Made by a program: the position numbers and the translations under genes | Notes under the pieces: model-generated | Database searches by the model: none | Seen by the model: only the letters and a program-made list of their open reading frames with translations | What the model was told of the DNA's origin: nothing | Assembly (NCBI GenBank): GCA_003696765.1 | Contig: RFFX01000005.1 | Location: 24,169-88,168 of the forward strand | Source of the DNA: Zetaproteobacteria bacterium | Lineage (GTDB): Bacteria > Pseudomonadota > Zetaproteobacteria > Mariprofundales > J009 | DNA length: 64,000 nt | Direction: 5' to 3' | In this document: positions 18,313 to 54,452 of the stretch, one piece after another | How the letters are laid out: each line of letters starts with the position of its first letter | How positions within the stretch are numbered: position 1 is the first letter of the stretch

Positions 18313-19394
18313 CACCGTAGCGAACCGGCACCGCGGCCGTAGACCGGCGGGCGGAGATGGCGGTCGAGCAGCGGTACCAGGCAGTTCATCAGCATCACCG
18401 AGAACATCGCCCCTTCGGGATAGCCGCCGAAGGTGCGGATCACCCAGGTGAGCACCCCGCAGCCGATGCCGAACACGATCTGGGCGCGCGGCGCCACCGG
18501 CGAGGTGACCGGATCGGTGGCCATGAAGAAGGCGCAGAGCATCAGCCCGCCGGCGGCGATGTGAAAGGGCGCCGGGGCAAAGCGATCGGGATCGATCGCA
18601 TGGGCGATCGCGGCCAGCAGCGCCACCGAGGCCAGGTAGCTCGTCGGAATCTGCCAGCTGATCACCCGCACCCGCAGCAGGTAGAGCCCGCCGAGCAGCA
18701 GGGCCAGCGCGCTGGTCTCGCCCATGCTGCCCCCCTCGCGACCGAGCAGCGCATCGACCAGCGAATAGTGGGCGGCGGCCAGCGCCTCCGGCACGGTGGC
18801 GCCGCCGTGGAGCGCGGTCTTGAGCCGACCGAGCGGCGTGGCGGCGGTGATCGCGTCGAACGGCTGCCCGGTGGCGGCCACCCCGCCGGTGAAGATGGTC
18901 CAGGCATTGGAGAAGTGCGCCAGATCGATCCCGCCGGGCAGCGGCAACGGAATCAGCCAGGTGGTCATCTGCAGCGGGAAGGAGACCAGCAGGATCACCC
19001 GCGCGGCCAGCGCCGGGTTGAACGGATTGTAGCCCAGCCCGCCGTAGAGCTGCTTGCCCAGGGTGATGGCGGCAAGCGCGCCGATCAGCGCCACCCACCA
19101 GGGCGCCGCCGCCGGCAACACCAGCGCCAGAAAGAGCCCGGTCAGCGCCGCGGAGCCGTCGAGCGCCGCTGAGCCGTCCCGGCCGGTGAGGCGCAACACC
19201 CCCCACTCGATCACCACACAGGCGGTGATGGCGAAACCAAGCTGCAGCAGGGCCAGCCAGCCGAAGAGCCACACCGCCACCAGCGTCGCCGGTAGCAGTG
19301 CTGCCATCACCTGCAGCATCATCACCCGGCTGGAGCTGCCGCTGTGGTCGTGGGGGGAGCTCAATTCTGTTTGCAGCGCAAAACATCCGTCCAT
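18312..19394 (-). CDS. rnfD: Rnf electron-transport complex subunit D
   Basis: It has the SSPHDHSGSSSRVMM N-terminal signature and a polytopic body ending TDPVTSP...GGYPEGAMFSVMLMN. The start is uncertain: either ATG 19394 inside the repeat, or the TTG just before SSPH. Confidence 0.85.
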   Translation of the reverse strand: MDGCFALQTELSSPHDHSGSSSRVMMLQVMAALLPATLVAVWLFGWLALLQLGFAITACVVIEWGVLRLTGRDGSAALDGSAALTGLFLALVLPAAAPWWVALIGALAAITLGKQLYGGLGYNPFNPALAARVILLVSFPLQMTTWLIPLPLPGGIDLAHFSNAWTIFTGGVAATGQPFDAITAATPLGRLKTALHGGATVPEALAAAHYSLVDALLGREGGSMGETSALALLLGGLYLLRVRVISWQIPTSYLASVALLAAIAHAIDPDRFAPAPFHIAAGGLMLCAFFMATDPVTSPVAPRAQIVFGIGCGVLTWVIRTFGGYPEGAMFSVMLMNCLVPLLDRHLRPPVYGRGAGSLR

Positions 19395-19571
19395 GGATGT
19401 TTTGCTTGACGGAAAGCGAAGAATGCGATCTTCGCTTTCCTTACAAATCCTGCGCTTGCCTTGGCAAGCTTCGGATTTGCGCGGCCGTCCATGGCCGCGT
19501 TGATGGCTTCTCGCGAAACCATCAACTCTGTTTGCAGCGCAAGACATCCGTCCATGGATGTTTTGCTTGAC
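19360..19571 (+). repeat. Five-hairpin repeat, about 1.3 units (A-B-C-D-E-A), in the rnfC-rnfD gap
   Basis: Hairpins are A at 19367-19410, B ggaaagcgaaga/tcttcgctttcc, C caaatcc..gcttgcc/ggcaagc..ggatttg, D gcggcc-GTCCAT-ggccgc, E gttgatgg..ccatcaac, and a second A at 19528-19571. The two A copies are 43/44 identical and offset by 161 bp. Confidence 0.9.
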
Positions 19572-19598
19572 AACAATCCCCACCTCCCGGCGAAGCCC

Positions 19599-21095
19599 TC
19601 ACTGCTTCCGCTCCTCCACCCCCGCACCGGCCGCAGGCCTGCGCGAGCGCCTGCGGGCGGCACGCTCCTCCTGCTCGCGCCGGAGCCGCTCCTCACGCGC
19701 CTCGGAGCGGCGGCGCGACGCATCGGCGAATGCACGGGCGCGGCGAATCGCCGCCACCTGCCCCTTGCCGTAGCGGAAGTAGTGGACCAGCGGAATGTGG
19801 GCCGGGCAGACGTAGCTGCAGGCGCCGCACTCGATGCAGTCGAAGAGATGGAACGCCTCGGCCTGCTCGAAGCGGTCGTTGCGGCAGTGGGCGGCGAGCT
19901 CGTTGGGCATCAGCCCGGCGGGGCAGACCTGCAGGCAGTGGCCGCAGCGGATGCAGGGCGACTCCGGCTCGACCGGACGGCGCGCCATGGCAAGAATGGC
20001 GTTGCTCCCCTTGGTGACCGGCGCCTCCGGGTACAACACCCGCTCGCCCATCATCGGCCCGCCCTGGATGATCTCGATCCCCTCCAGATCGAGCAGCCCC
20101 TGCCGGCGCAGGAGGAAATCGATCGGCGTACCGATGCGCACCCGCAGATTGGCCGGCTGCGGCATGGCCTCCCCGCCCAAGGTCACCACCCGCTCGGTCA
20201 GCGGACGCCCCTGCAGCACCGCGTCGGCCACCGCCGCACTGGTTGCCACGTTGACGCAGAGCACCCCGACATGGAGCGGCAGCCGACCGGCAGGGACCTG
20301 CCGGCCGGTGATCGTCTCGATCAACTGCCGCTCGCTTCCCTGGGGATAGCGGACCGGCAGCAGCCGCACGGCGACGTCGTGCAGCCCCCCCGCGATGGAG
20401 GCCCGCTCCATCGCCTCGGCGGCGTCGGGCTTGTTCTCCTCGATCGCCACCACACAGCGCGCCGCGCCGACGACATGGCGCAGGATCGCCATCCCCGCGA
20501 CGATCCGCTCCGCCTCCTCGACCATCAGCCGGTGGTCGCAGGCGAGCCACGGCTCACACTCCACACCGTTGAGGATCAGGGTCTCGATCGGATGACGTGG
20601 GTCGCGCGCCAGCTTGACGAAGGTGGGGAAGAGCGCGCCGCCCAACCCGACGATCCCGCAGGCGCGGATGCGCTCGCGCAGCTCGGCCGGGTCGCGCTCC
20701 GGCCAGTCCGGCCACCCCTCCCACCCGCCGGTGGAGCGGTCCTCCCCGTCGGCCTCGATGAAGATCGAGCGCATCCCGATGCCCGAGGGGTGGACGATGG
20801 CGTGCTCCTCGATCTTGACCACCGTCCCGGAGGTGGGGGCGTGGAGCGCCGCGGAGACGTAGCCCTGCGGCCGGGCGATCGGCTCATCGCGCAACACCCG
20901 CGCACCGACATCGACCACCGGCTCGGCGCTCTCCCCGATATGTTGACGCACCGGCACGACGAACAGCGGCGGCAGCGGCGCGGACTCGATGGGTGCGGCG
21001 GCGGCATCCTCGTGCATCTCGGGATGGACCCACGGCCGGGCCAACGGCAGCAGCCCCCCCAGCAGCCGCACCCCCATCCGCTGCCAGCTATGCAT
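19599..21095 (-). CDS. rnfC: Rnf electron-transport complex subunit C
   Basis: 498 aa. It has two ferredoxin motifs, CIRCGHCLQVCP and CIECGACSYVCP, a GLGGALFPT-type nucleotide-binding region and a basic C-terminal tail. Confidence 0.9.
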   Translation of the reverse strand: MHSWQRMGVRLLGGLLPLARPWVHPEMHEDAAAAPIESAPLPPLFVVPVRQHIGESAEPVVDVGARVLRDEPIARPQGYVSAALHAPTSGTVVKIEEHAIVHPSGIGMRSIFIEADGEDRSTGGWEGWPDWPERDPAELRERIRACGIVGLGGALFPTFVKLARDPRHPIETLILNGVECEPWLACDHRLMVEEAERIVAGMAILRHVVGAARCVVAIEENKPDAAEAMERASIAGGLHDVAVRLLPVRYPQGSERQLIETITGRQVPAGRLPLHVGVLCVNVATSAAVADAVLQGRPLTERVVTLGGEAMPQPANLRVRIGTPIDFLLRRQGLLDLEGIEIIQGGPMMGERVLYPEAPVTKGSNAILAMARRPVEPESPCIRCGHCLQVCPAGLMPNELAAHCRNDRFEQAEAFHLFDCIECGACSYVCPAHIPLVHYFRYGKGQVAAIRRARAFADASRRRSEAREERLRREQEERAARRRSRRPAAGAGVEERKQ

Positions 21096-21140
21096 CGCGA
21101 TCAGGACGCGGCAGAGCCGGCATGACGGGGACCCCTCCTT

Positions 21141-21209
21141 GCGGCCACGGCGGAGCGCGCGAAACAGCCGAGCAAACAGCCCACGGACGGACTTTTTGCG
21201 ATCTCATCA
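21141..21209 (-). repeat. Truncated copy of the repeat (D-like plus A hairpin) in the rnfB-rnfC gap
   Basis: The sequence is gcggccacggcgg...gagcaaacagcccacggacggactttttgcgatctcatca. The terminal TCA at 21207-21209 is the rnfB stop codon. Confidence 0.6.
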
Positions 21210-21791
21210 TCCATGCTGCATCCTGCGCGCACGGCCCAGATCGGCGCGCGCGGTGCCCGGCAGCGGCCAGGACCAGTGCTCCAGCAACTCCGGCTTCTCC
21301 AGCATGTCGATGCAGTCGACCGGACAGGGCTCGACGCAGAGGGCGCAACCGGTGCAGTCGTCGGCGATCACCACATGGTACTGCCTGGGCGCGCCGACGA
21401 TGGCATCGACCGGACAGGCCTTGATGCAGAGCGTACAGCCGATGCACTCGTCCTCTCGGATGAAGGCGACCATCGGCGCCTTGGGCTCCTCTTCGATCGC
21501 CTTGGGCTCCACCCCCATGATGTCGGCGATCTGGCGCATCACCCGCTCGCCGCCCGGCACACAGTGGTTGACCTCCGCCTCGCCTGTGGCCACCGCGTGG
21601 GCGTAGGGCCTGCAGCCGGGATAGCCGCACTGGCCGCACTGGGTCTGCGGCAGCAACCGGTCGATCGACTCCTCCAGCGGATTGCCCTCCACCTTGAACA
21701 GGCGGGAGAAGAGGGCCAGCGCCGAGCCGAAGAGCACCCCCGCGCCCGCCAGCAACAACACCGGCGTCCACAATGCGGCGCCTCCCGTCAA
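21207..21791 (-). CDS. rnfB: Rnf electron-transport complex subunit B
   Basis: 194 aa. It has an N-terminal TM helix, the CGQCGYPGC cluster, and two ferredoxin motifs [12 protein letters not shown] and [12 protein letters not shown]. Confidence 0.9.
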
Positions 21792-21815
21792 CGGCGGTCG
21801 ATGCCCGGCGGTGGA

Positions 21816-22397
21816 TCAGCCCTTGACCAGACCGCTGAACCCGAGAAAGGCCAGGCTCATCATCCCGGCGGTGATCAGGGTGATCGGGCTGCCGCGAAAC
21901 GGGCGCGGCACCGGCGCACCGTCCAGCCGTTCGCGCAAGCCGGAGAAGGCGACCAGCACGATGGAGAAGCCGATCGCCGCCCCCAGGCCGTAGAGCGCGG
22001 CCTGCGGCAGATCGAGCTCCTTCTGCACGTTGAGCAGCGCCACACCGAGCACGGCGCAGTTGGTGGTGATCAGCGGCAGGAAGACGCCCAGCGCCTGATG
22101 GAGCAGCGGGCTGGTCTTGTGCATGGCCATCTCGACCAGCTGCACCAGCGAGGCGATCACCAGAATGAAGAAGACGGTCTGGAGATACTCCAGCCCCAGC
22201 GGCTGCAGCAGCCAGTGCTGCACCATCCAGGTGGAGATCGAGGCGAGCGTCATGACGAACATCACCGCCAGCGCCATGCCGACGGCGGTTTCGGTTTTGG
22301 CGGAGACACCGAGAAAGGGGCAGATGCCGAGGAACTTGGCCAACACGAAGTTGTTGACCAGCACCACGGAGACCAGGATCAGCAGGTAGTCATGCAT
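21816..22397 (-). CDS. rnfA: Rnf electron-transport complex subunit A
   Basis: The internal start [32 protein letters not shown] matches the canonical RnfA N-terminus. The product is a 193-aa polytopic protein. Confidence 0.9.
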
Positions 22398-22478
22398 GCC
22401 GGCAATGCTACCGCCCACGGCGCAAAATGTATCACCATCACCTCGCCCGGGCCGCAGCGCGACCGGGCAAAGCAGCGA

Positions 22479-22871
22479 TCAGCGCTTGGAGAACTGCGGC
22501 GCGCGCCGCGCCTTCTTCAAGCCGTACTTCTTGCGCTCGACCACGCGGGCGTCCCGGGTGAGAAAGCCGCGCTTCTTCAGCAGCGGGCGCAGCCCGGAGT
22601 CGTAGCTGACCAGCGCGCGGGCCAGCCCCATACGGATCGCACCGGCCTGACCGCTCACCCCGCCGCCACGCACGTTGACCCGCACATCGACCCGTCCCGA
22701 AAGGCTGACGGCGGCCAGCGGCTCCAGCGCCCGCTGACGGGTGATCTCGATCGGAAAATAGCGCTCGATCTCCCGCCCGTTGACCTCGATCCTGCCGGCA
22801 CCCGGCTTCAGGATGACGCGGGCGGTGCTCGCCTTGCGCCGCCCCGTTCCGCGATGGATGTTCTCGTTCAC
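22479..22871 (-). CDS. rpsI: 30S ribosomal protein S9
   Basis: 130 aa. It contains [12 protein letters not shown] and ends [17 protein letters not shown]. Confidence 0.97.
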
Positions 22872-22874
22872 GAC

Positions 22875-23339: not shown

Positions 23340-23481
23340 CGTATCCACCTGCCCGAAACAATGAGATTGGAACCGAATCCAGGCCCATCGTGGACCCGTC
23401 GGCGATCGGCGGGGCAGCCACACCCACGGAGGCGGCCGCCGCCGGTTCCATCCCCGGGGCCGCGCCCGCAGGGGGCGGCGC

Positions 23482-24597: not shown

Positions 24598-24610
24598 CCA
24601 TACCAAAGCC

Positions 24611-25213: not shown

Positions 25214-26381
25214 GATCCAGAATTACACCCTCAACTTCGGGCCGCAACACCCCTCGGCCCACGGCGTGCTCCGGCTGGTGCTGGAGCTCGACGGCGAGGT
25301 GGTCGAACGGGCGGAGCCGCACATCGGCCTGCTCCATCGCGGCACCGAGAAGCTGTTCGAGCAGAAGACCTACCATCAGAACATTCCCTACTTCGACCGC
25401 TTCGACTATGTGTCGATGATGTGCAACGAGCACCCCTACGCGCTGGCCGTGGAGAAGCTGCTCGGCATCGAGGCGCCGATCCGCGCCCAGTACATCCGGG
25501 TGATGTTCGCCGAGCTGACCCGCATCCTCAACCACTGCCTCTGGCTGGGCGCGCACGCGCTCGACATCGGCGCCATGACCGTCTTCCTCTACTGCTTCCG
25601 CGAGCGCGAGGATATCTTCGACTTCTACGAGGCGGTCAGCGGCGCCCGCATGCACGCCGCCTACTTCCGCCCCGGCGGGGTGACCGCCGACCTGCCCGAG
25701 GGGCTGCTGGAGCGGATCTGGGCGTTCACCGAGCGCTTTCCCGGCTATGTCGACGAGTACGAGACGCTGCTGACCGAGAACCGCATCTGGAAACAGCGCA
25801 CCGTCGACATCGGCGTGGTCGACCGCGATGCGGCGCTGGCCTGGGGCTTCACCGGCCCGATGCTGCGCGGCTCGGGCGTTGCATGGGACCTGCGCAAGAC
25901 CCAACCCTACGACGTCTACGACCAGCTCGACTTCGAGATCCCGGTCGGCGCCACCGGCGACTGCTACGACCGCTATCTGGTGCGGGTGGAGGAGATGCGG
26001 CAATCCAACGAGATCGTCCGCCAGTGCATCCACTGGCTGGAGAAGCACGACGGTCCGGTCAAGATCGACGACTACAAACTGACCAATCCCCCGCGCGCCC
26101 TGATCAAGGAGGACATGGAGTCGCTCATCCACCACTTCAAGTTCTTCTCCGAGGGCTATCCGGTCGAGGGCGAGATCTACCAGCCCACCGAACACCCCAA
26201 GGGGGAGCTGGGGGTCTACATCCGTGCCGACGGCTCCAACAAGCCCTACCGCATCAAGGTGCGCGCGCCGGGCTTCGCCCATCTGCAGGCGCTCGACTAT
26301 ATGTGCCGCGGCCATATGATCGCCGACGTGGTCACCATCCTCGGCACCCAGGACATCGTCTTCGGCGAGGTCGATCGATGA
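25206..26381 (+). CDS. nuoD: NADH-quinone oxidoreductase subunit D
   Basis: 391 aa. It contains [15 protein letters not shown] and ends in the conserved IVFGEVDR. The GTG start overlaps nuoC by 8 nt. Confidence 0.97.
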
Positions 26382-26565
26382 TGGTCTCGCAAGAAACCAT
26401 CATCGCGACCATGGAGGGTCGCGCAAACCCGGAGGTTGCAGACGCAACCGACGGATTTGTAAGGGGATCGAAAACCGCGATCTTCGATCCCCGTCAAGCA
26501 AAAAGTCCACGGACGGACTTTTTGCGATTCGATCATCGATGATGGTTTCGCAAGTAACCATCATC
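26373..26565 (-). repeat. Five-hairpin repeat, about 1.2 units (E-D-C-B-A-E as read on +), between nuoD and nuoE
   Basis: Hairpin E cgatgatgg..ccatcatcg occurs at 26376 and again at 26537, an offset of 161 bp. D, C, B and A lie between them. The nuoD stop TGA (26379-26381) lies inside the first E stem. Confidence 0.9.
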
Positions 26566-26584
26566 TGTTGTGGTGTGGTCACCG

Positions 26585-27079
26585 ATGAGTGAATCGCTCT
26601 CCTTCAGCCGCGAACAGCAGGAGGCGATCGCCGCGCTGGTGGCGCGCTACCCCCATCCCCGCTCGGCGCTGCTGCCGGTGCTGCACATGGCCCAGGAGAC
26701 CTTCGGCCACCTCTCCTTGGAGGCGCAGCAGCTCGTCGCCGACACCTTGGGGCTGCGGCTGATGGTGGTGCGCGAGGTGGTCACCTTCTACACCATGTTC
26801 CGCGAGACACCCGCCGGCAAATACCGGCTGGAGTTCTGCACCAACGCCGGCTGCATGCTCAACGGCGCGCGGGAGCTGGTGGCGCATGTCTGCGACAAAC
26901 TGGGGATCCGACCGGGGGAGACCACCGAGGACGGCCTGTTCACCGTCACCGAGGTGGAGTGCGCCGGCGCCTGCGGCGGCGCGCCGGTGGTCCAGATCAA
27001 CAACGTCTACCACGAGAAGGTCGACCCCGAAACGATCGACGCGCTGATCGAGCAGATGCGCAGCGAGGCATCGGCATGA
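26585..27079 (+). CDS. nuoE: NADH-quinone oxidoreductase subunit E
   Basis: The N-terminus MSESLSFSREQQEAIAALVARYPHPRSALLPVLHMAQE is typical of NuoE. The 2Fe-2S Cys residues are present (CTNAGC...CAGACGGAP). Confidence 0.93.
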   Translation: MSESLSFSREQQEAIAALVARYPHPRSALLPVLHMAQETFGHLSLEAQQLVADTLGLRLMVVREVVTFYTMFRETPAGKYRLEFCTNAGCMLNGARELVAHVCDKLGIRPGETTEDGLFTVTEVECAGACGGAPVVQINNVYHEKVDPETIDALIEQMRSEASA

Positions 27080-32275: not shown

Positions 32276-32863
32276 ATGTCGCTCATCACCCTCTTCTTCG
32301 ACCTCTTCGCCACCCTGGCTGTGCTCGGCGGTGCCATGGTGGTGCTCTCGCGCAACCCGATGCACTCGGTGATGTGGCTGATCTTCTGCTTCTTCAACGC
32401 CGCCGGCCTCTTCTTCCTGCTCGATGCCGAGTTTCTCGGCGTCATCCTCATCCTGGTCTACGTCGGCGCGGTGATGGTGCTCTTCGTCTTCGTCATCATG
32501 ATGATCGAGGTCAACGTCGCCCAGATGCGCGAGGGATTCCTGCGCTATCTGCCGATCGGCGGGCCGATCGCATTGATCCTCTTCGCCGAGATGGTCGCCG
32601 CCGGCTTCAGCGGCATCTTCTCGACCGCCCGCACCGGCGTTGTCGGCCACCTGGGCGGCCAGGTCGACAACACGGTGGAGATCGGCAAGGAGCTCTACAC
32701 CCGCTATCTGCTCGGCTTCGAGCTGGCGGCGATCATCCTGCTGGTGGCACTGGTCGGCGCGGTGGTGCTCACCCTGCGCGCCCGCAAGGATGCACGCTAC
32801 CAGAACATCGCCAGACAGGTGGCCGTGAAGAAGGAAGAGCGGCTGCGCAAGGTGAGGATGTGA
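32276..32863 (+). CDS. nuoJ: NADH-quinone oxidoreductase subunit J
   Basis: ATG 32276 lies 2 nt after nuoI. The product is a hydrophobic 195-aa protein containing VYVGAVMVLFVFVIMM. Confidence 0.93.
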   Translation: MSLITLFFDLFATLAVLGGAMVVLSRNPMHSVMWLIFCFFNAAGLFFLLDAEFLGVILILVYVGAVMVLFVFVIMMIEVNVAQMREGFLRYLPIGGPIALILFAEMVAAGFSGIFSTARTGVVGHLGGQVDNTVEIGKELYTRYLLGFELAAIILLVALVGAVVLTLRARKDARYQNIARQVAVKKEERLRKVRM

Positions 32864-32984
32864 CCATGACGGCTCTGCATAAGGGCGACATCCGCGACCG
32901 GTACGGCCGCGCAAAACGGGAGCTTGCGCATGCAAGCGACGGTTTTGTAAAACGTCCACGGACGGACTTTTTGCGATTCGATCA
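32857..32984 (-). repeat. Deleted copy of the repeat (E-like, D, C, A; hairpin B missing) between nuoJ and nuoK
   Basis: The sequence is gaccggtacggccgcg, caaaacgggagcttgcgcatgcaagcgacggttttg, taaaacgtccacggacggactttttgcgattcgatca. It ends 3 nt before the nuoK ATG. Confidence 0.8.
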
Positions 32985-32987
32985 GTA

Positions 32988-33293
32988 ATGGTACCACTCT
33001 CCAGCTACCTCATCGTCGACGCCGCCCTCTTCTCGATCGGGGTGGTCGGGCTGTTCCTCAACCGCAAGAACGTGATCACCATCCTGATGTGCATCGAGCT
33101 GATCCTGCTGGCGGTGAACATCAACTTCGTCGCCTTCTCCCACTTCCTCGGCGATCTCGCCGGCCAGCTCTTCGTCTTCTTCGTCTTGACCATCGCGGCC
33201 AGCGAGGTGGCGGTCGGCCTGGCCATCCTGGTCGCCTTCCACCGCCTGCGCCGCTCGATCGATGTGGCGGACATCAACACCCTGCAGGGCTGA
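32988..33293 (+). CDS. nuoK: NADH-quinone oxidoreductase subunit K
   Basis: 101 aa with 3 TM helices. It contains [18 protein letters not shown] and [13 protein letters not shown]. Confidence 0.95.
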
Positions 33294-42074: not shown

Positions 42075-43546
42075 TCCGCGCCGTCCGCCCCCTCGCCGCC
42101 CTGCTCGCCGGAGCGGCGATGCAGTTCGGCTTCTCCCCCTATGCGCTCCGGCCGGTGGCCGTCGCCGCCCTCGCCTTGTGGCTCGCCCTGCTCGCCGACG
42201 GCCGCCGCCCCTTCGCATTGAGCTACGCCTTCGGCTTCGGCTGGTTCGGCATCGGCTCCTGGTGGCTGGCACCCACCTTCCACCACTACGGCCACCTGCC
42301 GTGGCCGCTCGCCATTGCCGCCCAGTCGCTGGCCGGCGGGGTGCTGGCCCTCTTCCCGGCGCTGCTCGGCTGGTCGGCGGTGCGTCTGGCCGGTGGTCGG
42401 CGCAGCGCGCTGCTGCTGCTGATCGCCCCGCTTACCCCGATCGAGGAGTGGTTGCGCGGCCATCTCTTCACCGGCCTGCCGTGGACCGGCCTCGGACTGC
42501 TCACCCTCGATACGCCGTGGATCGGCTGGGGGCAGATCGTCGGCGGGCTGGGGCTCGGCATCGTCCCGGTCATGCTGGCCGCGGCCGCCGCCGGCCTGCT
42601 CCACCACACCACCCGCCGCACGGCGGCCGCCCTGCTCGCCGCGGCGTTGCTGCTTACCGCCACCGCGCCCGCAATCGGCGTGCCGGCCGCGCCCGCGCTG
42701 CGTGTCGCGCTGATCCAGCCGAACATCCCCCAGGATGTGAAATGGGACCGCGACTGGCTGGTCACCACCATGCGGCGGCTACTCGGCCACTCCGCGCAGG
42801 CGGCGGATGCCGACCTGCTGGTCTGGCCGGAGGCGGCAACCCCCTTCTTCCTCTCCGATGCGCCGGGCTGGCGACAGGCGCTGGCCAGTGCGGTCACGCG
42901 CTGGCACACGCCACTGCTCTTCGGCGGCCTCAAGCGCACCGCGCACGACGGCGCGGCCAACGGCGCCTGGCTGATGCGCCCCGGGGATGCGCCGCCCCGC
43001 TTCGTCGGCAAACACCATCTGGTCCCCTTCGGCGAGTATGTGCCGGCATGGCTCCCCTGGCTGCACACGCTGGTGCCGGAGATCGGCGACTTCCGCCCGA
43101 CACACGATCGCGGCGTGCTCGCCGTCGACGACCGGATCAGGATCGGCGTGTTGATCTGCTACGAATCGATCTTCGCCGACGAGATGCGCCGGCGCATCGC
43201 CGGCGGCGCCGACCTGCTGGCAGTGCTGACCAACGACGCCTGGTACGGCCGCTCGCCCGCAGCCTGGCAGCATCTCGAGGCGGCGCGCATGCGCGCGGTG
43301 GAGAGCGAGCGCTTCGTGCTGCGCGCGGCCAACACCGGCGTCTCGGCGATCATCGCCCCCGACGGCGCCATCCGCGCCACGACCGACTGGTGGCGGCAGG
43401 CCACGGTCACGGGCACGGCGGTGCCGATCGGGCGCGTCACCCCCTACTGCCGGCTGGGCGACGCCCCGCTGCTGGCTGCAGCGCTGCTGATGGTCGTCGT
43501 CACCACATGGCGATTTCGCAGCCGCACCGTAGCATCGCCCGCTTGA
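42071..43546 (+). CDS. lnt: Apolipoprotein N-acyltransferase
   Basis: 491 aa. It has an N-terminal polytopic domain and a C-terminal CN-hydrolase domain (WPEAA..., VLICYES). It overlaps the corC stop. Confidence 0.9.
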   Translation: MIRAVRPLAALLAGAAMQFGFSPYALRPVAVAALALWLALLADGRRPFALSYAFGFGWFGIGSWWLAPTFHHYGHLPWPLAIAAQSLAGGVLALFPALLGWSAVRLAGGRRSALLLLIAPLTPIEEWLRGHLFTGLPWTGLGLLTLDTPWIGWGQIVGGLGLGIVPVMLAAAAAGLLHHTTRRTAAALLAAALLLTATAPAIGVPAAPALRVALIQPNIPQDVKWDRDWLVTTMRRLLGHSAQAADADLLVWPEAATPFFLSDAPGWRQALASAVTRWHTPLLFGGLKRTAHDGAANGAWLMRPGDAPPRFVGKHHLVPFGEYVPAWLPWLHTLVPEIGDFRPTHDRGVLAVDDRIRIGVLICYESIFADEMRRRIAGGADLLAVLTNDAWYGRSPAAWQHLEAARMRAVESERFVLRAANTGVSAIIAPDGAIRATTDWWRQATVTGTAVPIGRVTPYCRLGDAPLLAAALLMVVVTTWRFRSRTVASPA

Positions 43547-43584
43547 CCGAACCCACACCGGTTTGCACCGCAAGCCTATGGAGA

Positions 43585-43741
43585 CGATGGTTTCGCAAGA
43601 AACCACCATCGCGGCCACGGACGGTCGTACAAAACGGGAGCCCGCGCATACAAGCTGCTGTTTTGTAAGGGAACAGAAGAGCGCGTTCTTCGATCCCCGT
43701 CGAGCAAAAAGTCCACGGACGAACTTTTTGCGATCTGATCA
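43585..43741 (-). repeat. Five-hairpin repeat, single unit (E-D-C-B-A as read on +), upstream of the FKBP gene
   Basis: The sequence is cgatggtttcgcaagaaaccaccatcg, cggccacggacggtcg, acaaaac..gttttgt, ..gttcttcgatcccc, gcaaaaagtccacggacgaactttttgcgatctgatca. It ends 14 nt before ATG 43756. Confidence 0.85.
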
Positions 43742-43755
43742 ACGGAGCCCATATC

Positions 43756-44517
43756 ATGAACCCGAAAACCCGACTGCTGGCGCTGACCGCGGCGCTGGCC
43801 ATCGCCGGCTGTAACCAGCCGACCGAATCGACCGCCCGCGACAGCGACGGTCACCACAAACCGGCAACCACCGGCACCGCTGCTGCAGCCGCGCCGGTCA
43901 AGCTGGAGGGTGAGGCGAGCAGGTTCAGCTACGCCGTCGGCCTCAACTTCGGCCGCTCGCTGGAGCACTTCCCGGTGCCGCTGGACAAGGCGGCGCTGCT
44001 CGCCGCCATCGAGACGGCGATCGAGCACAAAAAGCCGCTGCTCTCGCCGCAGGAGGCACGGGAGACCATCCGCGCGGTCGTGAACAAGGCTCAGCAGCGG
44101 GCGCAGGCGCAGCGCAGCGCGCTGGCGGAGAAGAACCGGAAGGCGGGGGAGGCGTTCCTCGCCGCCAACCGCAAGAAGGAGGGGGTGCACACCACCCCCA
44201 GCGGCCTGCAATACCAGATCCTGCGCGAAGGCGACGGCCCATCGCCCAAGGCGACCGACACGGTCCGGGTCCACTACAAGGGGACGCTGCTCGACGGCAC
44301 GGTGTTCGACTCCTCCTACGCACGAGGCAAGCCCGCCACCTTCCCGCTCAACGGGGTGATCAAGGGATGGACCGAGGGGCTGCAACTGGCCAAGGTGGGC
44401 GGCAGGATCCGCCTCTTCATCCCGCCGGAGCTGGCCTACGGCGCTCATGGCGCCGGCGACAGGATCGGCCCCAACCAGACGCTGATCTTCGATGTCGAGC
44501 TGCTCGGGATTGAGTAG
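43756..44517 (+). CDS. FKBP-type peptidyl-prolyl cis-trans isomerase, Mip/FkpA-like lipoprotein
   Basis: 253 aa. The signal and lipobox is LTAALAIAGC. It has an N-terminal dimerisation helix region and a C-terminal FKBP domain (GLQYQILREGDG, VHYKGTLLDGTVFDSS, GWTEGLQL, LIFDVELL). Confidence 0.9.
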   Translation: MNPKTRLLALTAALAIAGCNQPTESTARDSDGHHKPATTGTAAAAAPVKLEGEASRFSYAVGLNFGRSLEHFPVPLDKAALLAAIETAIEHKKPLLSPQEARETIRAVVNKAQQRAQAQRSALAEKNRKAGEAFLAANRKKEGVHTTPSGLQYQILREGDGPSPKATDTVRVHYKGTLLDGTVFDSSYARGKPATFPLNGVIKGWTEGLQLAKVGGRIRLFIPPELAYGAHGAGDRIGPNQTLIFDVELLGIE

Positions 44518-44675
44518 TGATCTCCTCGCAAAAAGTCCGTCCGTGGACTTTTTGCTTGACGGGGATCGAAGAGCGCGGTCTTCGATCCCCTTACAAATCC
44601 GTCGGTTGCATACGCAACCTCCGGATTTGCGCTGCCGTCCATGGCCGCGATGATGGTTTCTTGCGAAACCATCAG
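44518..44675 (+). repeat. Five-hairpin repeat, single unit (A-B-C-D-E), starting 1 nt after the FKBP stop
   Basis: The sequence is tgatctcctc-gcaaaaagtccGTCCGTggactttttgc, ggggatcgaaga..tcttcgatcccc, caaatcc..ggttgc-atac-gcaacc..ggatttg, ctgccGTCCATggccg, gatgatggtttc-ttgc-gaaaccatca. Confidence 0.9.
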
Positions 44676-45360
44676 TAGTGACGGATCGGGAGGGCGCCGT
44701 CAGCCCAGGCCGGCGGCGGCGATCTTCGATCTCGACGGCACGCTGGTCGACGCCCTGCCCGACATCCGGGCCAACATCAACCGGGCGCTGGCCGCCCTCG
44801 GCTACGACCGACGGCTGGACATGGAGGAGACCCGGCCGCTGGTCGGCGGCGGCGCGCGCAATCTGGCCGCCTCGATCCTCGGCAAGGGGATCGACGCGCC
44901 GGAGACCGAAGCGCTCTACCAGCGCTTCTGCGCCATCTACGCCCACCATCCGGCGGAACTGAGCCGCCCGTTCGACGGGGTGATCGAGACGCTGACGGCG
45001 CTGAAGGAGCGCGGCGTGCGGCTGGCCTGCGTCACCGCCAAGCCGGCCGTCGCCCGGGTGGCGGTACTCGATGCGCTGGCGCTCTCCCCGCTGTTCGACG
45101 CCGCCCTCTCGCCGGAGGAGGGCTTCCCCACCAAACCGGCCCCCGACATGCTGCTCGCCAGCTGCCGGATCATGGGGGTGGCGCCGGAGCGGGCCATCAT
45201 GGTCGGCGATACCCGCTACGACCTCGAGGCGGGGCTGGCCGCCGGCTGCCACACCACCATCCACATCAGCCACGGCTACCAGCCGCTTCCGGACGACCTG
45301 CGCGGGCGGGTGATGGCCATCGACCACTTCCGCCAGCTGCTGCCGCTCTTTTCGGGGTGA
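44641..45360 (+). CDS. gph: HAD-superfamily phosphoglycolate phosphatase-like hydrolase
   Basis: It has the FDLDGTLVD motif I, a TAKP-type motif II and a GDTRYD motif IV. The only in-frame ATGs (44641, 44650, 44653) lie inside hairpins D and E of the repeat, so the start is uncertain. Confidence 0.7.
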   Translation: MAAMMVSCETISSDGSGGRRQPRPAAAIFDLDGTLVDALPDIRANINRALAALGYDRRLDMEETRPLVGGGARNLAASILGKGIDAPETEALYQRFCAIYAHHPAELSRPFDGVIETLTALKERGVRLACVTAKPAVARVAVLDALALSPLFDAALSPEEGFPTKPAPDMLLASCRIMGVAPERAIMVGDTRYDLEAGLAAGCHTTIHISHGYQPLPDDLRGRVMAIDHFRQLLPLFSG

Positions 45361-48877: not shown

Positions 48878-49150
48878 TCAGCGCAGCGGCGTCACCCGCA
48901 GCCGCCCCTCGCCGTCGACCGTGATGCGGAAGCGCCGGCCGTTGCTGCAGGTCGCCTCAACCTCCCTGCCGCCGTCGGACCGGCTGCGGCGGGTCAGGTC
49001 ATGGACCACCCGGCCGGGGCAGTCGTAGCCGCGCAGCTTGATGGTGGTGGCGACATCCTCCTCCTCACGCACCGCCTGCGCGGCGACCGGCGCCAGGATG
49101 GGCACGGCGCCGAGCAGCAACCAGACCATCCTCCATCGTCTCATCCACAT
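48878..49150 (-). CDS. Hypothetical small secreted protein (90 aa)
   Basis: The internal start ATG 49150 gives MWMRRWRMVWLLLGAVPILAPVAAQA, a signal peptide, followed by a 2-Cys mature domain. I recognise no family. Confidence 0.5.
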   Translation of the reverse strand: MWMRRWRMVWLLLGAVPILAPVAAQAVREEEDVATTIKLRGYDCPGRVVHDLTRRSRSDGGREVEATCSNGRRFRITVDGEGRLRVTPLR

Positions 49151-49252
49151 GATCACACCGCAACCACTCCCTCCATGGACTGTTTGCTCAACGGCGATCG
49201 CAAGGCTACGCCCTCGATCCCCGAACACCGCGCAGCCCTCCGTGGCCGCGGA
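49149..49252 (+). repeat. Decayed, deleted copy of the repeat (A, B, D; C missing)
   Basis: tgatcacaccgcaaccactccctccatggactgtttgctcaac, ggcgatcgcaagg..ccctcgatcccc and cgcagccctccgtggccgcg align module by module with 44518-44675. Confidence 0.55.
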
Positions 49253-49272
49253 TCCCCCGGCCGGCCGGGGCG

Positions 49273-52656: not shown

Positions 52657-52690
52657 CCCGCCGCGCGGGCCCCGGAGGAGCAGGCTGCGT

Positions 52691-52978
52691 TCACGCCTCC
52701 TCCCCGAAGCGGTCGGCGATCAGCCCGGCCAGGGCCGTCACCGCCGCCTCGGCATCGTCGCCCCGCGCGGTGAGGGTCAACCGCTCCCCCTTGGCCGCAG
52801 CCAGCATCATCACCCCGAGGATGCTCTTGCCGTTGACGCAGACCCCCCCCTTGGTGATGGAGATCTCGCTGCGGAAGCGGTTGCTCAGGGCCACCAGCTT
52901 CGCCGACGCACGGGCATGCAACCCCAGCCTGTTGCCGATGGTCACCTCCACCCGATGCTCTCCGCCGGCTGAGCCCAC
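52691..52978 (-). CDS. ptsH: Phosphocarrier protein HPr
   Basis: 95 aa. The His15 context is NRLGLHARAS and the Ser46 context is NGKSILGVMML. Confidence 0.9.
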   Translation of the reverse strand: MGSAGGEHRVEVTIGNRLGLHARASAKLVALSNRFRSEISITKGGVCVNGKSILGVMMLAAAKGERLTLTARGDDAEAAVTALAGLIADRFGEEA

Positions 52979-52984
52979 CCGACG

Positions 52985-53395
52985 CTACCCGCCGCTCCGG
53001 GAGAGGAGCGTGGAGGCCGGACAGAGATAGCGCCGGCCGCCGGCCACCCCCTTTCGCGCCACCCGCTCCGGCCCGCCGCGCCCGCCGCGTTCGCTGGCCA
53101 TGGCGATCAACGCCGGCAGGGAGATGCCGGAGACCACCTCCACCCGCCCCGGATCGAGCAGGCCGAGGGCGATGTTGCACGGCGTGCCGCCGAACATGTC
53201 GGCGCAGACGATCACCCCGTCGCCGCCGTCACAGCGATCCACGGCGGCGGTGAGCGCCCGGCCCACCTCCTCCGGATCGTCGTCGGGTGCCACGTTGATG
53301 TACTCCATCGCGGATTGCGGCCCCAGCACATGTTCGACGGCGCAAAAGAGCGCCTCGGGCAACCGCCCGTGGCCGACGATGACGATGCCGACCAC
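52985..53395 (-). CDS. PTS EIIA component, mannose/fructose family
   Basis: 136 aa. The N-terminal MVGIVIVGHGRLPEAL contains the active-site His, and DMFGGTPCN is present. No EIIB, EIIC or EIID gene is nearby. Confidence 0.85.
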   Translation of the reverse strand: MVGIVIVGHGRLPEALFCAVEHVLGPQSAMEYINVAPDDDPEEVGRALTAAVDRCDGGDGVIVCADMFGGTPCNIALGLLDPGRVEVVSGISLPALIAMASERGGRGGPERVARKGVAGGRRYLCPASTLLSRSGG

Positions 53396-53397
53396 CG

Positions 53398-54291
53398 CTA
53401 GCCCGCCGCCTGCAGCGTGCGTTGCCGCCCCAGCTCACGGTGGCGCACCACACAGGGGAGCCACGCATCGGGACGCTCCGCCATCCAGCCGGCGAGCTCC
53501 TCGACGACGAAGACCGAGCGGTGGCGCCCGCCGCTGCAGCCGACCGCCAGCGTGAAGTGGCGCTTGCGCTCGCGCTCCATCTGCGGCCGGATCATGGTCA
53601 GCCACCCCATCATCCGGTCGAGCAGCGCCGCCGTCTGGGGCTGGCCGCGCAGGAAGGCGGCCACCTCCCGATCGGCACCGGTCAGCCGGGCCATCCCCTC
53701 CTCGTAATGGGGGTTGGGCAGGAAGCGGACGTCGACCACCATGTCCGCCTCCTGCGGCAGGCCGCGTTGATAGCTGAAGGAGACCAGCGTGGTGAGCAGC
53801 TGCGGCGTCGCCGAGCCGCCGTCGTGGTTGCGCTGCCAGAACTGCTGCACCAGATCGGCCAGCTCGTAGGGGTTGAGGCCGCTGCTGTCGAGTAGCTGCG
53901 TCGCGCGCCGGCGCAACGGCTCCAGCGCATCCCGCTCCCGGGCGATCGCCTCGTCCACCGGGACGGCGGGGGCGAAGGGGTGGGTGCGGCGCACGGTGGA
54001 GAAGCGGCGCAGCAGCGACTGGGCATCCGCCTCGATGAAGAGCAGCAGCCAGTCGGGGTGGGCATCCATCTGGCGGCCGAGGTCGTCCAGCAGCAGCCGG
54101 GTCGACTCGGCGCTGCGCACATCGACGCAGACGGCGGCGTGCTCGTGGTTGCGCAGCGCGACGCGCGCCCACTCCTCGAGCAGCTCCGGCGGCAGGTTGT
54201 CGGTGCAGAAGAGCCCCTCATCCTCCAGCGTGTGCAGCGCCGTGCTCTTGCCGGCGCCGGAGAGGCCGGAGACGATGATCAGCATGGGCAA
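53398..54291 (-). CDS. rapZ: RNase adapter protein RapZ (YhbJ)
   Basis: It has Walker A SGLSGAGKSTAL, FCTDNLP and a C-terminal CSGGRHRSV motif. The start is TTG 54291 or ATG 54285. Confidence 0.9.
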   Translation of the reverse strand: MPMLIIVSGLSGAGKSTALHTLEDEGLFCTDNLPPELLEEWARVALRNHEHAAVCVDVRSAESTRLLLDDLGRQMDAHPDWLLLFIEADAQSLLRRFSTVRRTHPFAPAVPVDEAIARERDALEPLRRRATQLLDSSGLNPYELADLVQQFWQRNHDGGSATPQLLTTLVSFSYQRGLPQEADMVVDVRFLPNPHYEEGMARLTGADREVAAFLRGQPQTAALLDRMMGWLTMIRPQMERERKRHFTLAVGCSGGRHRSVFVVEELAGWMAERPDAWLPCVVRHRELGRQRTLQAAG

Positions 54292-54452
54292 CGATGGGTG
54301 CGCAAGAATCCGTCATCCGCGACCGGGACGATCACGCAACACGGAAGCCTGCGCATGCATCCTACTGTTTTGTAAGGAGATCGAAAGGCGCGAACCTCGA
54401 TCGCCGCCGAGCCAACCCACCATGGACGAACGTTTTGCGATTCCATCGACGA
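54292..54452 (-). repeat. Decayed full-length copy of the repeat between hprK and rapZ
   Basis: cgatgggtgcgcaagaatccgtcatc, cgcgaccgggacgatcacg, caacacgg..ctgttttg, aggagatcgaaagg..cctcgatcgcc and ccaccatggacgaacgttttgcgattccatcga appear in the order E-D-C-B-A. The stems are partly broken. Confidence 0.6.

What the first reader, a model, noticed from the sequence alone, without database searches (positions are those of the whole stretch)
19360..54452. Family of 161-bp five-hairpin repeats embedded in essential operons, with compensatory stem substitutions
At least nine copies of one element occur in 64 kb.

Copies:
- Near-complete: 19360-19571 (+), 26373-26565 (-), 43585-43741 (-), 44518-44675 (+), and 54292-54452 (-, decayed).
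- Deletion variants: 32857-32984 (no hairpin B), 21141-21209 (D plus A only), and 49149-49252 (no C).
- Solo A hairpin: 7750-7790.

Forward order of modules:
- TGATCGAATC terminus
- A: gcaaaaagtcc-GTCCGT-ggactttttgc
- B: ggggatcgaaga-N6-tcttcgatcccc
- C: caaatcc..ggttgc-N4-gcaacc..ggatttg
- D: gcggcc-GTCCAT-ggccgc
- E: gatgatggtttc-TTGC-gaaaccatcatc

Stems differ between copies by paired changes:
- A: aaaaAGtcc/ggaCTtttt (44518 copy) versus aaaaCAtcc/ggaTGtttt (19360 copy).
- B: ggGGaTcgaaga/tcttcgAtCCcc versus ggAAaGcgaaga/tcttcgCtTTcc.
- C inner: gGttgc/gcaaCc versus gCttgc/gcaaGc.
- C outer: caaaTcc/ggAtttg versus caaaAc/gTtttg (32857 copy).
- E: gAtgatgg/ccatcaTc versus gTtgatgg/ccatcaAc.

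Base pairing, not primary sequence, is therefore what is maintained. Every copy sits in a short gap between co-oriented genes (nuoD/E, nuoJ/K, rnfC/D, rnfB/C, hprK/rapZ, lnt/FKBP/gph). None lies in a convergent or divergent spacer.

I cannot tell without a database search whether this family is already catalogued. Its size, five-module architecture and operon-internal placement resemble BOX, ERIC or Correia-type elements rather than simple REPs.
Basis: seen in the sequence. Interest (0 to 1): 0.72.

Follow-up and report, generated by a model that had tools for sequence, protein, structure and literature searches.

The report
Mobile five-hairpin repeat (MITE) family
The repeats are real copies of a small non-coding jumping element (a MITE) that lands exactly on the stop/start junctions of tightly packed genes, duplicating about 8 bases so that both neighbouring genes survive; the same element occurs in Zetaproteobacteria and in the unrelated sulfur bacterium Desulfurivibrio.

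Summary
The window, from a 69% GC Zetaproteobacteria MAG, carries exactly the nine copies listed: five full and four partial. Each full copy folds into five local hairpins. Over 45 copies from several genomes, 94% of stem cells pair and 23 of 52 pairs show changes on both sides.

Copies have in-register 18-nt terminal inverted repeats (12.8/18 identical versus 4.4 in other registers). They are flanked by locus-specific ~8-bp target-site duplications: 25 of 48 copies have an exact word of at least 7 nt, versus 0.45 in controls. Four junctions (lnt|FKBP, FKBP|HAD, nuoD|nuoE, nuoJ|nuoK) are empty in related genomes, and the duplicated target there carries the stop codon, start codon or RBS.

It is therefore a MITE. 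No transposase partner was found, and nothing matched in Rfam, the plasmid, phage or viral collections, or the searchable literature. The full element also occurs in Mariprofundaceae, Desulfurivibrio isolates (phylum Thermodesulfobacteriota) and a gammaproteobacterial MAG, at 71–78% identity between lineages.

A second variant shares only the termini, so the termini are the mobility signals. Private substitutions mostly break stems, so pairing is not clearly maintained in situ. An RNA-level role (GGA loops, GNRA loop on the reverse strand) remains unproven. This is a new member of a known kind, of moderate interest.

The parts
44508..44683 (+). Full copy (hairpins A-B-C-D-E) between the FKBP-type isomerase and HAD hydrolase genes.
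   Evidence: nhmmer E 6e-56; cmsearch 182.5 bits; five-hairpin MFE fold; this junction is empty in L052 and L053.
44513..44520 (+). Left target-site duplication AGTAGTGA. It contains the FKBP stop codon TAG (44515-44517) followed by an in-frame TGA formed at the junction.
   Evidence: Sequence; the same 8-mer recurs at 44674-44681.
44674..44681 (+). Right target-site duplication AGTAGTGA.
43576..43751 (-). Full copy between lnt and the FKBP gene. The duplicated target is A(T/C)GGAG(A/C)C at 43578-43585 and 43742-43749, which is the FKBP ribosome-binding site.
   Evidence: In L052, L053 and L054 lnt and FKBP overlap by ATGA with no element.
26370..26545 (-). Full copy between nuoD and nuoE. The nuoD stop TGA (26379-26381) is formed by the target TG plus the first base (A) of the element.
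   Evidence: In L056, L057 and L058 nuoD and nuoE overlap by ATGA with no element.
26536..26565 (-). Extra E hairpin after a second copy of the target word. The target-derived CGATGA occurs three times (26376-26381, 26537-26542, 26583-26588). This looks like the remnant of a head-to-tail dimer.
   Evidence: (family D3, spacing 161).
19358..19533 (+). Full copy between rnfC and rnfD.
19523..19572 (+). Extra linker plus A hairpin, the start of a second unit 161 nt after the first.
   Evidence: (family D9).
54283..54458 (-). Decayed full copy between hprK and rapZ. The hprK stop TGA (54453-54455) lies at the 5' terminus of the element.
32858..32994 (-). Deletion variant lacking hairpin B, between nuoJ and nuoK. 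The native target TAGCCATG held the nuoJ stop and the nuoK start. The decayed duplicates are TGACCATG (32861-32868) and CAGTAATG (32983-32990).
   Evidence: In L056 and L058 the native gap is 2 nt.
21114..21219 (-). Partial copy (hairpin A plus a D-like remnant) between rnfB and rnfC. The rnfB stop TGA (21207-21209) is formed at the target/element junction.
49140..49261 (+). Decayed partial copy (A, B and D; no C, and E lost) between two small minus-strand ORFs.
7740..7807 (+). Decayed solo A hairpin with its 5' linker, immediately upstream of the leuA-like gene start (7750, minus strand).
   Evidence: nhmmer E 0.0035; cmsearch E 6e-5; sequence; Pfam.

Best explanation
The repeats are copies of a non-autonomous DNA transposon, a MITE. 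It is about 153 nt long plus an ~8-bp target duplication, which gives the 161-nt period.

Anatomy:
- It has imperfect 18-nt terminal inverted repeats: 5' AT(C/G)nnATCGCAAAAAGTC and, at the other end, GACTTCTTGCGAAGTC(G/A)T 3'.
- It has no coding capacity.
- Its interior consists of local hairpins.

Inferred mechanism:
- A transposase encoded elsewhere binds the termini and makes staggered cuts about 8 bp apart in targets resembling CAT-NNN-TG. Repair of the gaps duplicates the target. The transposase was not found here.
- In these compact genomes adjacent genes overlap or are 2-22 nt apart. The copies that survive are those whose duplicated 8-mer carries the stop codon, start codon or RBS of the junction, so both genes stay intact. 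The element's terminal A completes a TGA with the target's TG.
- The hairpins have no U-tract, so operon transcription reads through them.

What each part is for:
- The termini are the mobility signals. They comprise the 5' ~30 nt with GTCCRTGG and the 3' ~45 nt with RTCCRTGG plus hairpin E. A second variant with an unrelated interior keeps exactly these segments.
- Stem complementarity is preserved among the sublineages that proliferated. Individual inserted copies then decay.

Shown here: repeat family, structure, inverted termini, target duplications, empty sites, cross-phylum distribution.
Inferred: DDE-type cut-and-paste or copy-paste chemistry, mobilisation in trans, and why the hairpins are kept.
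For: Target-site duplication:
- 25 of 48 copies have an exact locus-specific word of at least 7 nt at a fixed position on both sides. Flank-swapped controls give 0.45 on average, maximum 2.
- 24 of 45 copies match at 7 or more of 8 positions in the aligned 8-mer.

Terminal inverted repeats:
- In-register identity is 12.8/18 against a median of 4.4 over all registers, and 15/18 in Desulfurivibrio.

Empty sites:
- lnt|FKBP and FKBP|HAD are empty in L052, L053 and L054.
- nuoD|nuoE and nuoJ|nuoK are empty in L056, L057 and L058, including a relative with 90% NuoE identity.
- L053 comes from a MAG that carries many copies elsewhere.
- The native sequence at each empty site matches the duplicated word.

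Copy number and decay series:
- There are 9 copies in 64 kb, plus solo modules and deletion derivatives.

Lineage pattern:
- Identity is 94% within Desulfurivibrio, 87% within Mariprofundaceae and 76% within the window, against 71-78% between lineages.
- The copy in a gammaproteobacterial MAG is 93% identical to window copies although the flanks share no DNA similarity.

Other support:
- Variant 2 shares only the termini and has its own target duplications.
- There is no promoter or terminator signal and no Rfam family.
- Shared stem variants are compensated (109 of 141 Watson-Crick), while private ones mostly break pairs.
- The features meet the working definition of prokaryotic MITEs in PMC10969869.
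Against: - No autonomous partner or transposase was found in the 428 kb held. Every gene lying between inverted termini is a housekeeping gene. Mobilisation in trans and the enzyme family are therefore inferred.
- The inverted repeats are imperfect and lie inside hairpins A and E, so part of their similarity could come from palindromy.
- TG next to the 5' end and CA next to the 3' end are better conserved than the same bases in the other copy of the duplication. The exact element/target boundary is therefore uncertain by 1-2 nt.
- About half of the copies have no clean duplication, through decay, indels or adjacent partial units.
- The element is GC-neutral to GC-rich (about 54% GC), not AT-rich as typical MITEs are.
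- Head-to-tail partial dimers are frequent and not fully explained.
Confidence: 0.8

Rival explanations
1. The element is primarily a host-selected structured RNA module, read on the strand complementary to A->E, that acts inside operon mRNAs. It could titrate or recruit a CsrA/RsmA-type protein through the AYGGAC loops of hairpins A and D, or protect mRNA segments. Transposition would only be its means of spread.
For: - Stems covary while loop bases stay fixed. TCC (GGA on the other strand) is 45/45 in loop D, which my search pattern did not select for.
- Loops A and D are in direct, not inverted, orientation.
- The E loop TTGC (over 90% conserved) reads GCAA, a GNRA tetraloop, on the reverse strand.
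- Wobble-type mismatches favour the reverse strand 89 to 31.
- There is a weak resemblance to RsmW on that strand: 22.3 bits against a gathering score of 52, E 0.057.
- The reverse strand folds slightly better.
Against: - The orientation bias is not significant once flanking genes are called strictly: 10 versus 5, p = 0.30. Upstream ORFs end at the two junctions 9 versus 9 times.
- Private substitutions mostly break pairs, so there is no clear in-situ purifying selection.
- Close relatives lack the insertions at four junctions, so the copies are dispensable.
- Variant 2 keeps the RTCCRTGG motifs without hairpins A and D, so those motifs do not depend on being displayed in loops.
- Many of the wobble cells are shared by descent.
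- The Rfam hit is far below threshold.
- Whether the hosts encode CsrA was not established (one search covered only the held DNA).
Confidence: 0.15
2. The compensatory stem changes are not selected. They arise mutationally, by intrastrand template switching at palindromes (quasipalindrome correction), which copies a change in one arm onto the other.
For: - Changes on both sides far outnumber G-U intermediates: 135 versus about 30 cells.
- Some copies carry private double changes in both partner columns: 8 of 22 private stem changes in Mariprofundaceae remain Watson-Crick.
- Both strands fold equally well as DNA.
Against: - Most private stem changes are left uncorrected (14 of 22; 33 of 39 in the window group), which argues against efficient correction in situ.
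- Decayed copies such as 54283-54458 and 49140-49261 have lost pairing.
- Apparently private double changes may be shared with copies I did not sample.
Confidence: 0.15
3. The element is a REP/BIME-type mosaic of extragenic palindromes moved as single-stranded DNA by a RAYT (HUH Y1) transposase.
For: - The architecture is modular and mosaic, with solo modules, deletion forms and a second interior.
- The hairpins have conserved loops, as in substrates of HUH enzymes.
- Location is strictly intergenic.
Against: - The flanking duplications are locus-specific and about 8 bp long, and they are derived from the target as the empty sites show. REP/REPIN and IS200/IS605-type elements make no target duplication (established knowledge of these families; see also PMC2817692, listed).
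- The termini are inverted repeats.
- The unit is about 153 nt, not 20-40 nt.
- No RAYT gene was seen in the held DNA.
Confidence: 0.04

Closest known systems
Correia elements (NEMIS) of Neisseria
   Same: A small (about 100-200 nt) non-coding element with terminal inverted repeats and a target duplication. It is present in many copies, often co-transcribed with neighbouring genes, and forms stable RNA stem-loops (PMC10969869; my own knowledge for the details).
   Different: By my own knowledge, Correia elements duplicate TA, fold as one long hairpin through their 26-bp inverted repeats, and are confined to one genus. The present element duplicates about 8 bp, folds into five separate local hairpins and occurs in two phyla. 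There is no sequence similarity.
ERIC / IRU elements of Enterobacteriaceae and Vibrionaceae
   Same: An imperfect-palindrome repeat of about 127 nt in transcribed intergenic regions, often inside operons, with deletion and insertion variants. Copy number varies widely between taxa (PMC10969869).
   Different: ERIC is one long imperfect palindrome. It does not have five independent covarying hairpins or the ~8-bp duplication at stop/start junctions seen here. There is no sequence similarity, and nothing matched in the E. coli-centred or plasmid collections.
BOX elements of Streptococcus pneumoniae and BIMEs of enterobacteria
   Same: Modular, mosaic build from a few hairpin-forming modules, with variable module content and clustering or nesting of elements (PMC10969869 section 3.3; PMC2817692 abstract).
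   Different: By my own knowledge, BOX and BIME lack clear inverted termini with a fixed-length target duplication, and BIME/REP are tied to RAYT enzymes. Here the inverted termini and the ~8-bp duplication are demonstrated.
Chunjie MITE of Geobacter uraniireducens
   Same: A MITE of about 178-235 bp with conserved inverted repeats and direct repeats. It has tens of full copies, many partial copies lacking the ends, and insertions affecting operons (PMC10969869 section 2.2).
   Different: It is a different sequence in a single host species. Neither a five-hairpin covarying interior nor a cross-phylum spread is reported for it.
MIRUs of Mycobacterium (intercistronic repeat units)
   Same: They are placed in intercistronic gaps of operons, with stop and start codons of the flanking genes overlapping the element. 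This resembles the nuoJ|nuoK case, where a 40-codon ORF crosses the element and ends on the nuoK start. The MIRU side of this comparison is from my own knowledge.
   Different: MIRUs are 40-100 bp tandem minisatellite units without inverted termini or target duplications. The short ORF here is a single instance, not a family feature.

Membership tests
Prokaryotic MITE | Small size (<500 bp) and no coding capacity | tested here: met
   The unit is about 153 nt. The reading frames through it show no consistent open frame. The definition is from PMC10969869.
Prokaryotic MITE | Terminal inverted repeats (about 4-30 bp) | tested here: met
   The terminal 18 nt match in register at 12.8/18 on average, against a median of 4.4 over 150 registers. 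Desulfurivibrio copies reach 15/18.
Prokaryotic MITE | Flanking direct repeats produced by duplication of the target | tested here: met
   25 of 48 copies have an exact flanking word of at least 7 nt, against 0.45 in controls. Four empty orthologous sites contain the single target word.
Prokaryotic MITE | Multiple dispersed copies, mostly intergenic, with truncated derivatives | tested here: met
   There are 9 copies in 64 kb and 50 full copies in 52 sequences, all intergenic. Solo modules and deletion forms occur.
Prokaryotic MITE | A related autonomous IS whose transposase recognises the same termini | tested here: inconclusive
   None was found in the 428 kb held.
Prokaryotic MITE | AT-rich composition (typical, not obligatory) | tested here: not met
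   Copies are 51-59% GC. This is lower than the 69% GC host but not AT-rich.
REP / REPIN / BIME (RAYT-mobilised) | Short (20-40 nt) palindromes without a target-site duplication | tested here: not met
   The unit is about 153 nt and has target-derived duplications of about 8 bp.
REP / REPIN / BIME (RAYT-mobilised) | An associated RAYT (Y1 HUH transposase) gene in the genome | not testable with these tools
   Only 8-kb neighbourhoods of copies were available, and none encodes one.
IS200/IS605-derived elements (PATE type) | Subterminal hairpins, no inverted termini, no duplication, insertion next to a fixed tetra- or pentanucleotide | tested here: not met
   Inverted termini and variable, locus-specific duplications are present.
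Catalogued structured RNA (Rfam 15) | A match at or above a family's gathering score | tested here: not met
   Only a tRNA-Ala gene matches in the window. The best permissive hit is RsmW at 22.3 bits against 52.
CsrB/Rsm-type CsrA-sequestering RNA | Multiple hairpins with GGA in their loops on a transcribed strand, and binding to CsrA/RsmA | tested here: inconclusive
   There are two AYGGAC loops per unit on the reverse strand. Orientation is not significantly biased. Binding, and the presence of csrA in the hosts, were not testable.
Intrinsic terminator | A GC-rich hairpin followed by a U-tract | tested here: not met
   None of the five hairpins is followed by a T-run. In the scan, only a weak site inside one decayed hairpin C appears.

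The most novel reading that the evidence does not exclude
The family is a mobile riboregulatory cassette. On this reading a transposable unit has been kept across two phyla because its reverse-strand RNA does something inside operon mRNAs. That RNA carries two hairpins displaying A-Y-G-G-A, a GNRA-capped hairpin and two spacer hairpins. It could bind a CsrA-like protein or set segmental mRNA stability. Transposition would then distribute a ready-made post-transcriptional control element to gene junctions. A separate unusual reading is that new copies preferentially re-insert into the duplicated target next to a resident copy, which would generate the head-to-tail mixed dimers.
Probability: 0.12. 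Interest if true: 0.8.

Novelty: new member of a known kind. Interest (0 to 1): 0.45.

Why it matters
- It adds an undescribed MITE family from poorly studied lineages: iron-oxidising Zetaproteobacteria and sulfur-disproportionating Desulfurivibrio.
- It shows concretely how a transposon can colonise essential, tightly packed operons (nuo, rnf, the hprK-rapZ cluster). An ~8-bp duplication of a stop/start junction, plus a terminal base that completes a TGA, leaves both genes intact.
- Near-identical architecture in two phyla points to horizontal spread of the still unidentified parent transposon.
- The Desulfurivibrio isolates carry 94%-identical copies, which offers a culturable system to find the transposase and to test whether the conserved GGA-type loops act in RNA.
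- For annotation, these repeats create spurious start codons and long false ORFs. One example is the ATG at 44641 inside hairpin E.

Tried and rejected
- Rfam at gathering and permissive thresholds gave nothing usable.
- The plasmid, phage and viral-contig collections gave no match. The JGI metagenome scan gave one hit.
- Literature searches for MITEs in Zetaproteobacteria and for the literal hairpin sequences returned nothing.
- The search for an autonomous parent failed by every route tried:
  - All-against-all comparison of ORFs near copies found only orthologues and translated repeats.
  - Genes next to solo-A loci and between inverted termini are all housekeeping genes.
  - Uncalled stretches of the window hold no transposase.
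  - A 473-aa ORF in L048 proved spurious. The real genes there encode rhodanese, a DUF302 protein and a Crp-family regulator.
- L039 is not an orthologous rnfD locus. Only the element is shared at the DNA level.
- A model with a 4-bp duplication and TG...CA termini was rejected. Copies with CC or CT at the 3' boundary carry the same dinucleotide in the 5' flank (L025, L026, L005, L037).
- An orientation bias of 19:8 from crude gene calls did not survive a benchmarked flank caller, which gave 10:5, p = 0.30.
- No general open reading frame runs through the element.
- No promoter or terminator was found.
- No CsrA gene was found in the held DNA.
- The look-up of encoding contigs could not retrieve the window's own contig.

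Full report

Yes. Direct-repeat detection finds the family immediately. An nhmmer profile built from the five long copies recovers:
- five full copies: 19358-19533+, 26370-26545-, 43576-43751-, 44508-44683+ and 54283-54458-;
- four partial copies: 32858-32994-, 21164-21219-, 49141-49242+ and marginally 7740-7807+;
- an extra A hairpin at 19523-19572 and an extra E hairpin at 26536-26565.

A covariance model carrying the five-hairpin structure finds the same nine loci and nothing else. The 49.1-kb copy sits between two small minus-strand ORFs. A single intact copy folds into exactly five local hairpins on either strand, with z-scores of -8.7, -10.8 and -9.8 against shuffles.

**2. Where else does it occur?**

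They come from four Mariprofundaceae/Mariprofundales MAGs, from Desulfurivibrio dismutans AMeS2, Desulfurivibrio sp. D14AmB and a Desulfurivibrio MAG, from one Desulfobacteraceae MAG and from one Gammaproteobacteria MAG. The profile shows that nearly all of these carry the whole five-hairpin element, with E-values from 1e-30 to 1e-51.

The window itself comes from a Zetaproteobacteria MAG. Its FKBP protein is 100% identical to an NCBI protein of that name on a 91-kb contig. Desulfurivibrio belongs to the phylum Thermodesulfobacteriota and Mariprofundaceae to Pseudomonadota. Two of the Desulfurivibrio assemblies are from isolates, so the cross-phylum distribution is not a binning artefact.

Identity within and between lineages:

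| Comparison | Mean identity |
|---|---|
| Within Desulfurivibrio | 94% |
| Within Mariprofundaceae | 87% |
| Among the window's own copies | 76% |
| Between lineages | 71-78% |

The copy in the gammaproteobacterial MAG is 93% identical to two window copies, although the surrounding DNA shows no similarity. The element is absent from the plasmid, phage and viral-contig collections and nearly absent from the metagenome collection. It matches no Rfam family. It is also not in the searchable literature.

**3. Structure**

I aligned 45 full copies. RNAalifold predicts hairpins A, B, C, D and E. With the complete structure of 52 pairs in six helices:
- 94.3% of cells are standard pairs;
- 23 pairs show a change on both sides, in 135 cells;
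- slid controls give 37-49% paired, 4-10 such pairs and 10-20 such cells;
- none of 500 shuffles reaches the observed values.

Sequence is also strongly conserved. 46 columns are invariant. Loops A and D read G-TCC-R-T and R-TCC-R-T. The TCC in loop D is 45/45 and was not imposed by my search pattern. Loop E is TTGC in over 90% of copies and loop B keeps GCG. Only loop C varies freely.

**4. What identifies the element**

*Target-site duplications.* In the alignment with flanks, the ~8 nt just before the 5' linker recur just after hairpin E, and the word differs at each locus. Examples are AGTAGTGA, CCTCTCTG, CATAAACG and CATACTTG. 25 of 48 copies share an exact word of at least 7 nt at a constant position. 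Flank-swapped controls give 0.45 on average and at most 2. The words follow a loose palindromic consensus, CAT-NNN-TG.

*Terminal inverted repeats.* The terminal 18 nt are inverted repeats in register. Identity is 12.8/18 against a median of 4.4 over other registers, and 15/18 in Desulfurivibrio.

*Empty sites.* Related Zetaproteobacteria have uninserted versions of four junctions:
- lnt and FKBP overlap by ATGA, and FKBP-HAD are 7 or 22 nt apart, in L052, L053 and L054. L053 is from MAG S009_29, which has dozens of copies elsewhere.
- nuoD and nuoE overlap by ATGA, and nuoJ-nuoK are 2 nt apart, in L056, L057 and L058. L057 has 90% NuoE identity to the window.

Base-level comparison shows what each duplicated word is:

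| Junction | Duplicated target | What it carries |
|---|---|---|
| nuoD\|nuoE | ATCGATGA | nuoD stop overlapping the nuoE start |
| nuoJ\|nuoK | TAGCCATG | nuoJ stop and nuoK start |
| FKBP\|HAD | AGTAGTGA | FKBP stop |
| lnt\|FKBP | A(T/C)GGAG(A/C)C | FKBP ribosome-binding site |

These three features, together with small size, no coding capacity, many copies and a series of truncated derivatives, meet the working definition of a prokaryotic MITE (PMC10969869).

**5. How it sits in essential operons**

Both ends of the element, read inward, give TG|A, where TG is the last two bases of the target and A is the first base of the element. In the window this junction TGA is the stop codon of nuoD, rnfB and hprK. 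It is also a second in-frame stop for FKBP.

Across all copies, 18 of 65 junction TGAs end an open frame of at least 80 codons, against a 12.5% baseline for all TGAs in the same loci. With a coding-potential filter the figures are 6 of 65 against 2.1%, p = 0.002.

At nuoJ|nuoK the duplicated ATG opens a 40-codon frame through the B-less copy. That frame ends at a TAA overlapping the true nuoK ATG. This would allow translational coupling, but it is a single case. The hairpins lack U-tracts and no promoter is evident.

Outside the window the copies are all intergenic, but they also occur in divergent and convergent gaps.

**6. Which parts matter for mobility?**

Looking at the partial tandems revealed a second variant, with at least 20 copies in the Mariprofundaceae loci I hold. 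It shares only the 5' ~30 nt (inverted repeat, the A 5' arm and GTCCGTGG) and the 3' ~45 nt (CRTCCGTGG, the D 3' arm and hairpin E). Its interior is an unrelated segment of three small hairpins. It has its own target duplications. The termini, including the two direct RTCCRTGG motifs, are therefore the likely cis-acting signals. Hairpins B and C, and the full A and D stems, are dispensable for spread.

Head-to-tail dimers carry the target word three times. Examples are L008 (variant 1 plus variant 2), L007 (variant 2 twice) and nuoD|nuoE in the window, where CGATGA occurs three times. Mixed dimers argue against simple slippage. They suggest re-insertion into the duplicated target next to a resident copy. 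This point remains unexplained.

**7. Why are the stems kept?**

Substitutions shared by several copies are mostly compensated. In Mariprofundaceae 109 of 141 remain Watson-Crick. Substitutions private to one copy mostly break pairs: 14 of 22 there, and 33 of 39 in the window group. The oldest copies have visibly decayed.

Pairing thus seems to be preserved in the sublineages that gave rise to new copies, not at each locus after insertion. This fits selection on propagation or on being tolerated at insertion. It does not fit a host function at each site well. A purely mutational origin by palindrome correction cannot be excluded for some of the double changes.

**8. Hints of an RNA role, and their limits**

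On the strand complementary to A->E:
- loops A and D read AYGGAC, an A(N)GGA motif in a loop, as in CsrA/RsmA targets (my own knowledge);
- loop E reads GCAA, a GNRA tetraloop;
- wobble-type mismatches favour that strand 89 to 31;
- the only Rfam resemblance is a sub-threshold RsmW hit on that strand.

Against this:
- the apparent orientation bias of 19:8 from crude gene calls falls to 10:5 (p = 0.30) with a codon-based flank caller that scored 196 of 196 on called genes;
- upstream ORFs end at the two junctions equally often, 9 and 9;
- many of the wobble cells are inherited together;
- variant 2 keeps the motifs without the hairpins.

I rate this reading as possible but unproven.

**9. What was not found**

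I found no transposase or autonomous parent. That covers the window, the genes next to solo modules or between inverted termini and a candidate ORF in L048, which turned out to be spurious. The enzyme family is therefore unknown. From memory, an 8-bp duplication is made by several IS families, among them IS256, ISL3, IS66, IS6, IS1595 and ISAs1. That is a lead only.

**10. Verdict**

This is a real, well-structured and apparently undescribed MITE family with two variants, spread across two phyla. It inserts precisely at gene junctions. It is a new member of a known kind. It is of moderate interest because of:
- the clear junction-duplication mechanism;
- the five covarying hairpins with fixed loops;
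- the cross-phylum distribution;
- the availability of cultured Desulfurivibrio hosts with young copies.

Noticed in passing
L004, L007, L008, L013, L019, L025, L026, L028, L029, L033, L037, L042, L046, L050, L053 (e.g. L008:1060-1190, L007 minus strand): A second MITE variant of about 122 nt shares only the termini of the five-hairpin element. Its interior is different: GCGGTT-GGA-AACCGC, TCCTAC-AGCCT-GTAGGA and GGGGAA-TCC-TTTCCCC. At least 20 copies occur in the Mariprofundaceae loci held, and none in the window. The interior also occurs on its own or in tandem (L023, L058, L010).
   Followed up: partly
window 26374-26588; L008:897-1200; L007 (minus strand): Head-to-tail dimers or partial dimers carry the locus-specific target word three times. 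They include mixed dimers of the two variants. This suggests re-insertion into the duplicated target beside a resident copy rather than slippage.
   Followed up: partly
window 32866-32988: The duplicated nuoK start codon opens a 40-codon ORF that runs through the B-less copy. It stops at a TAA overlapping the real nuoK ATG (TAATG). This would allow translational coupling across the insertion.
   Followed up: partly
window 44641-44684: The mechanical ORF for the HAD hydrolase starts at an ATG inside hairpin E. Orthologues (L052, L053) start about 20 codons later, so the element creates a false N-terminal extension. High-GC flanks also give long spurious ORFs, for example L048:5231-6652 on the minus strand.
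   Followed up: yes
window 43544-43546 versus L052:5965-6004: lnt in the window ends about 8 codons earlier than in relatives, where it overlaps the FKBP start. The insertion fell inside the old 3' end of lnt, and the protein now has a different, shorter tail.
   Followed up: partly
L039:5192-5461 (Gammaproteobacteria MAG J113, RFJX01000213.1): A tandem of 1.6 units is 93% identical to window copies 44508 and 26370. It is closer to them than the window's own copies are to one another, yet the flanking DNA is unrelated. This means either recent horizontal transfer or a mis-binned contig.
   Followed up: partly
L049:2667-2847, L002:6412-6579, L034:279-446: Some copies carry extra GC-rich insertions inside hairpin D, between D and E, or replacing hairpin C.
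   Followed up: no
window 15078-15153 (-): tRNA-Ala (CGC) gene next to an endonuclease V gene (15253-15948). My simple caller found no confident genes in the following stretch, about 16.0-18.3 kb. It presumably holds rnfG, rnfE and neighbouring genes.
   Followed up: no
window 44519-44678 (-): There is a sub-threshold Rfam resemblance to RsmW (22.3 bits against a gathering score of 52). It reflects the two AYGGAC hairpin loops on the reverse strand.
   Followed up: partly
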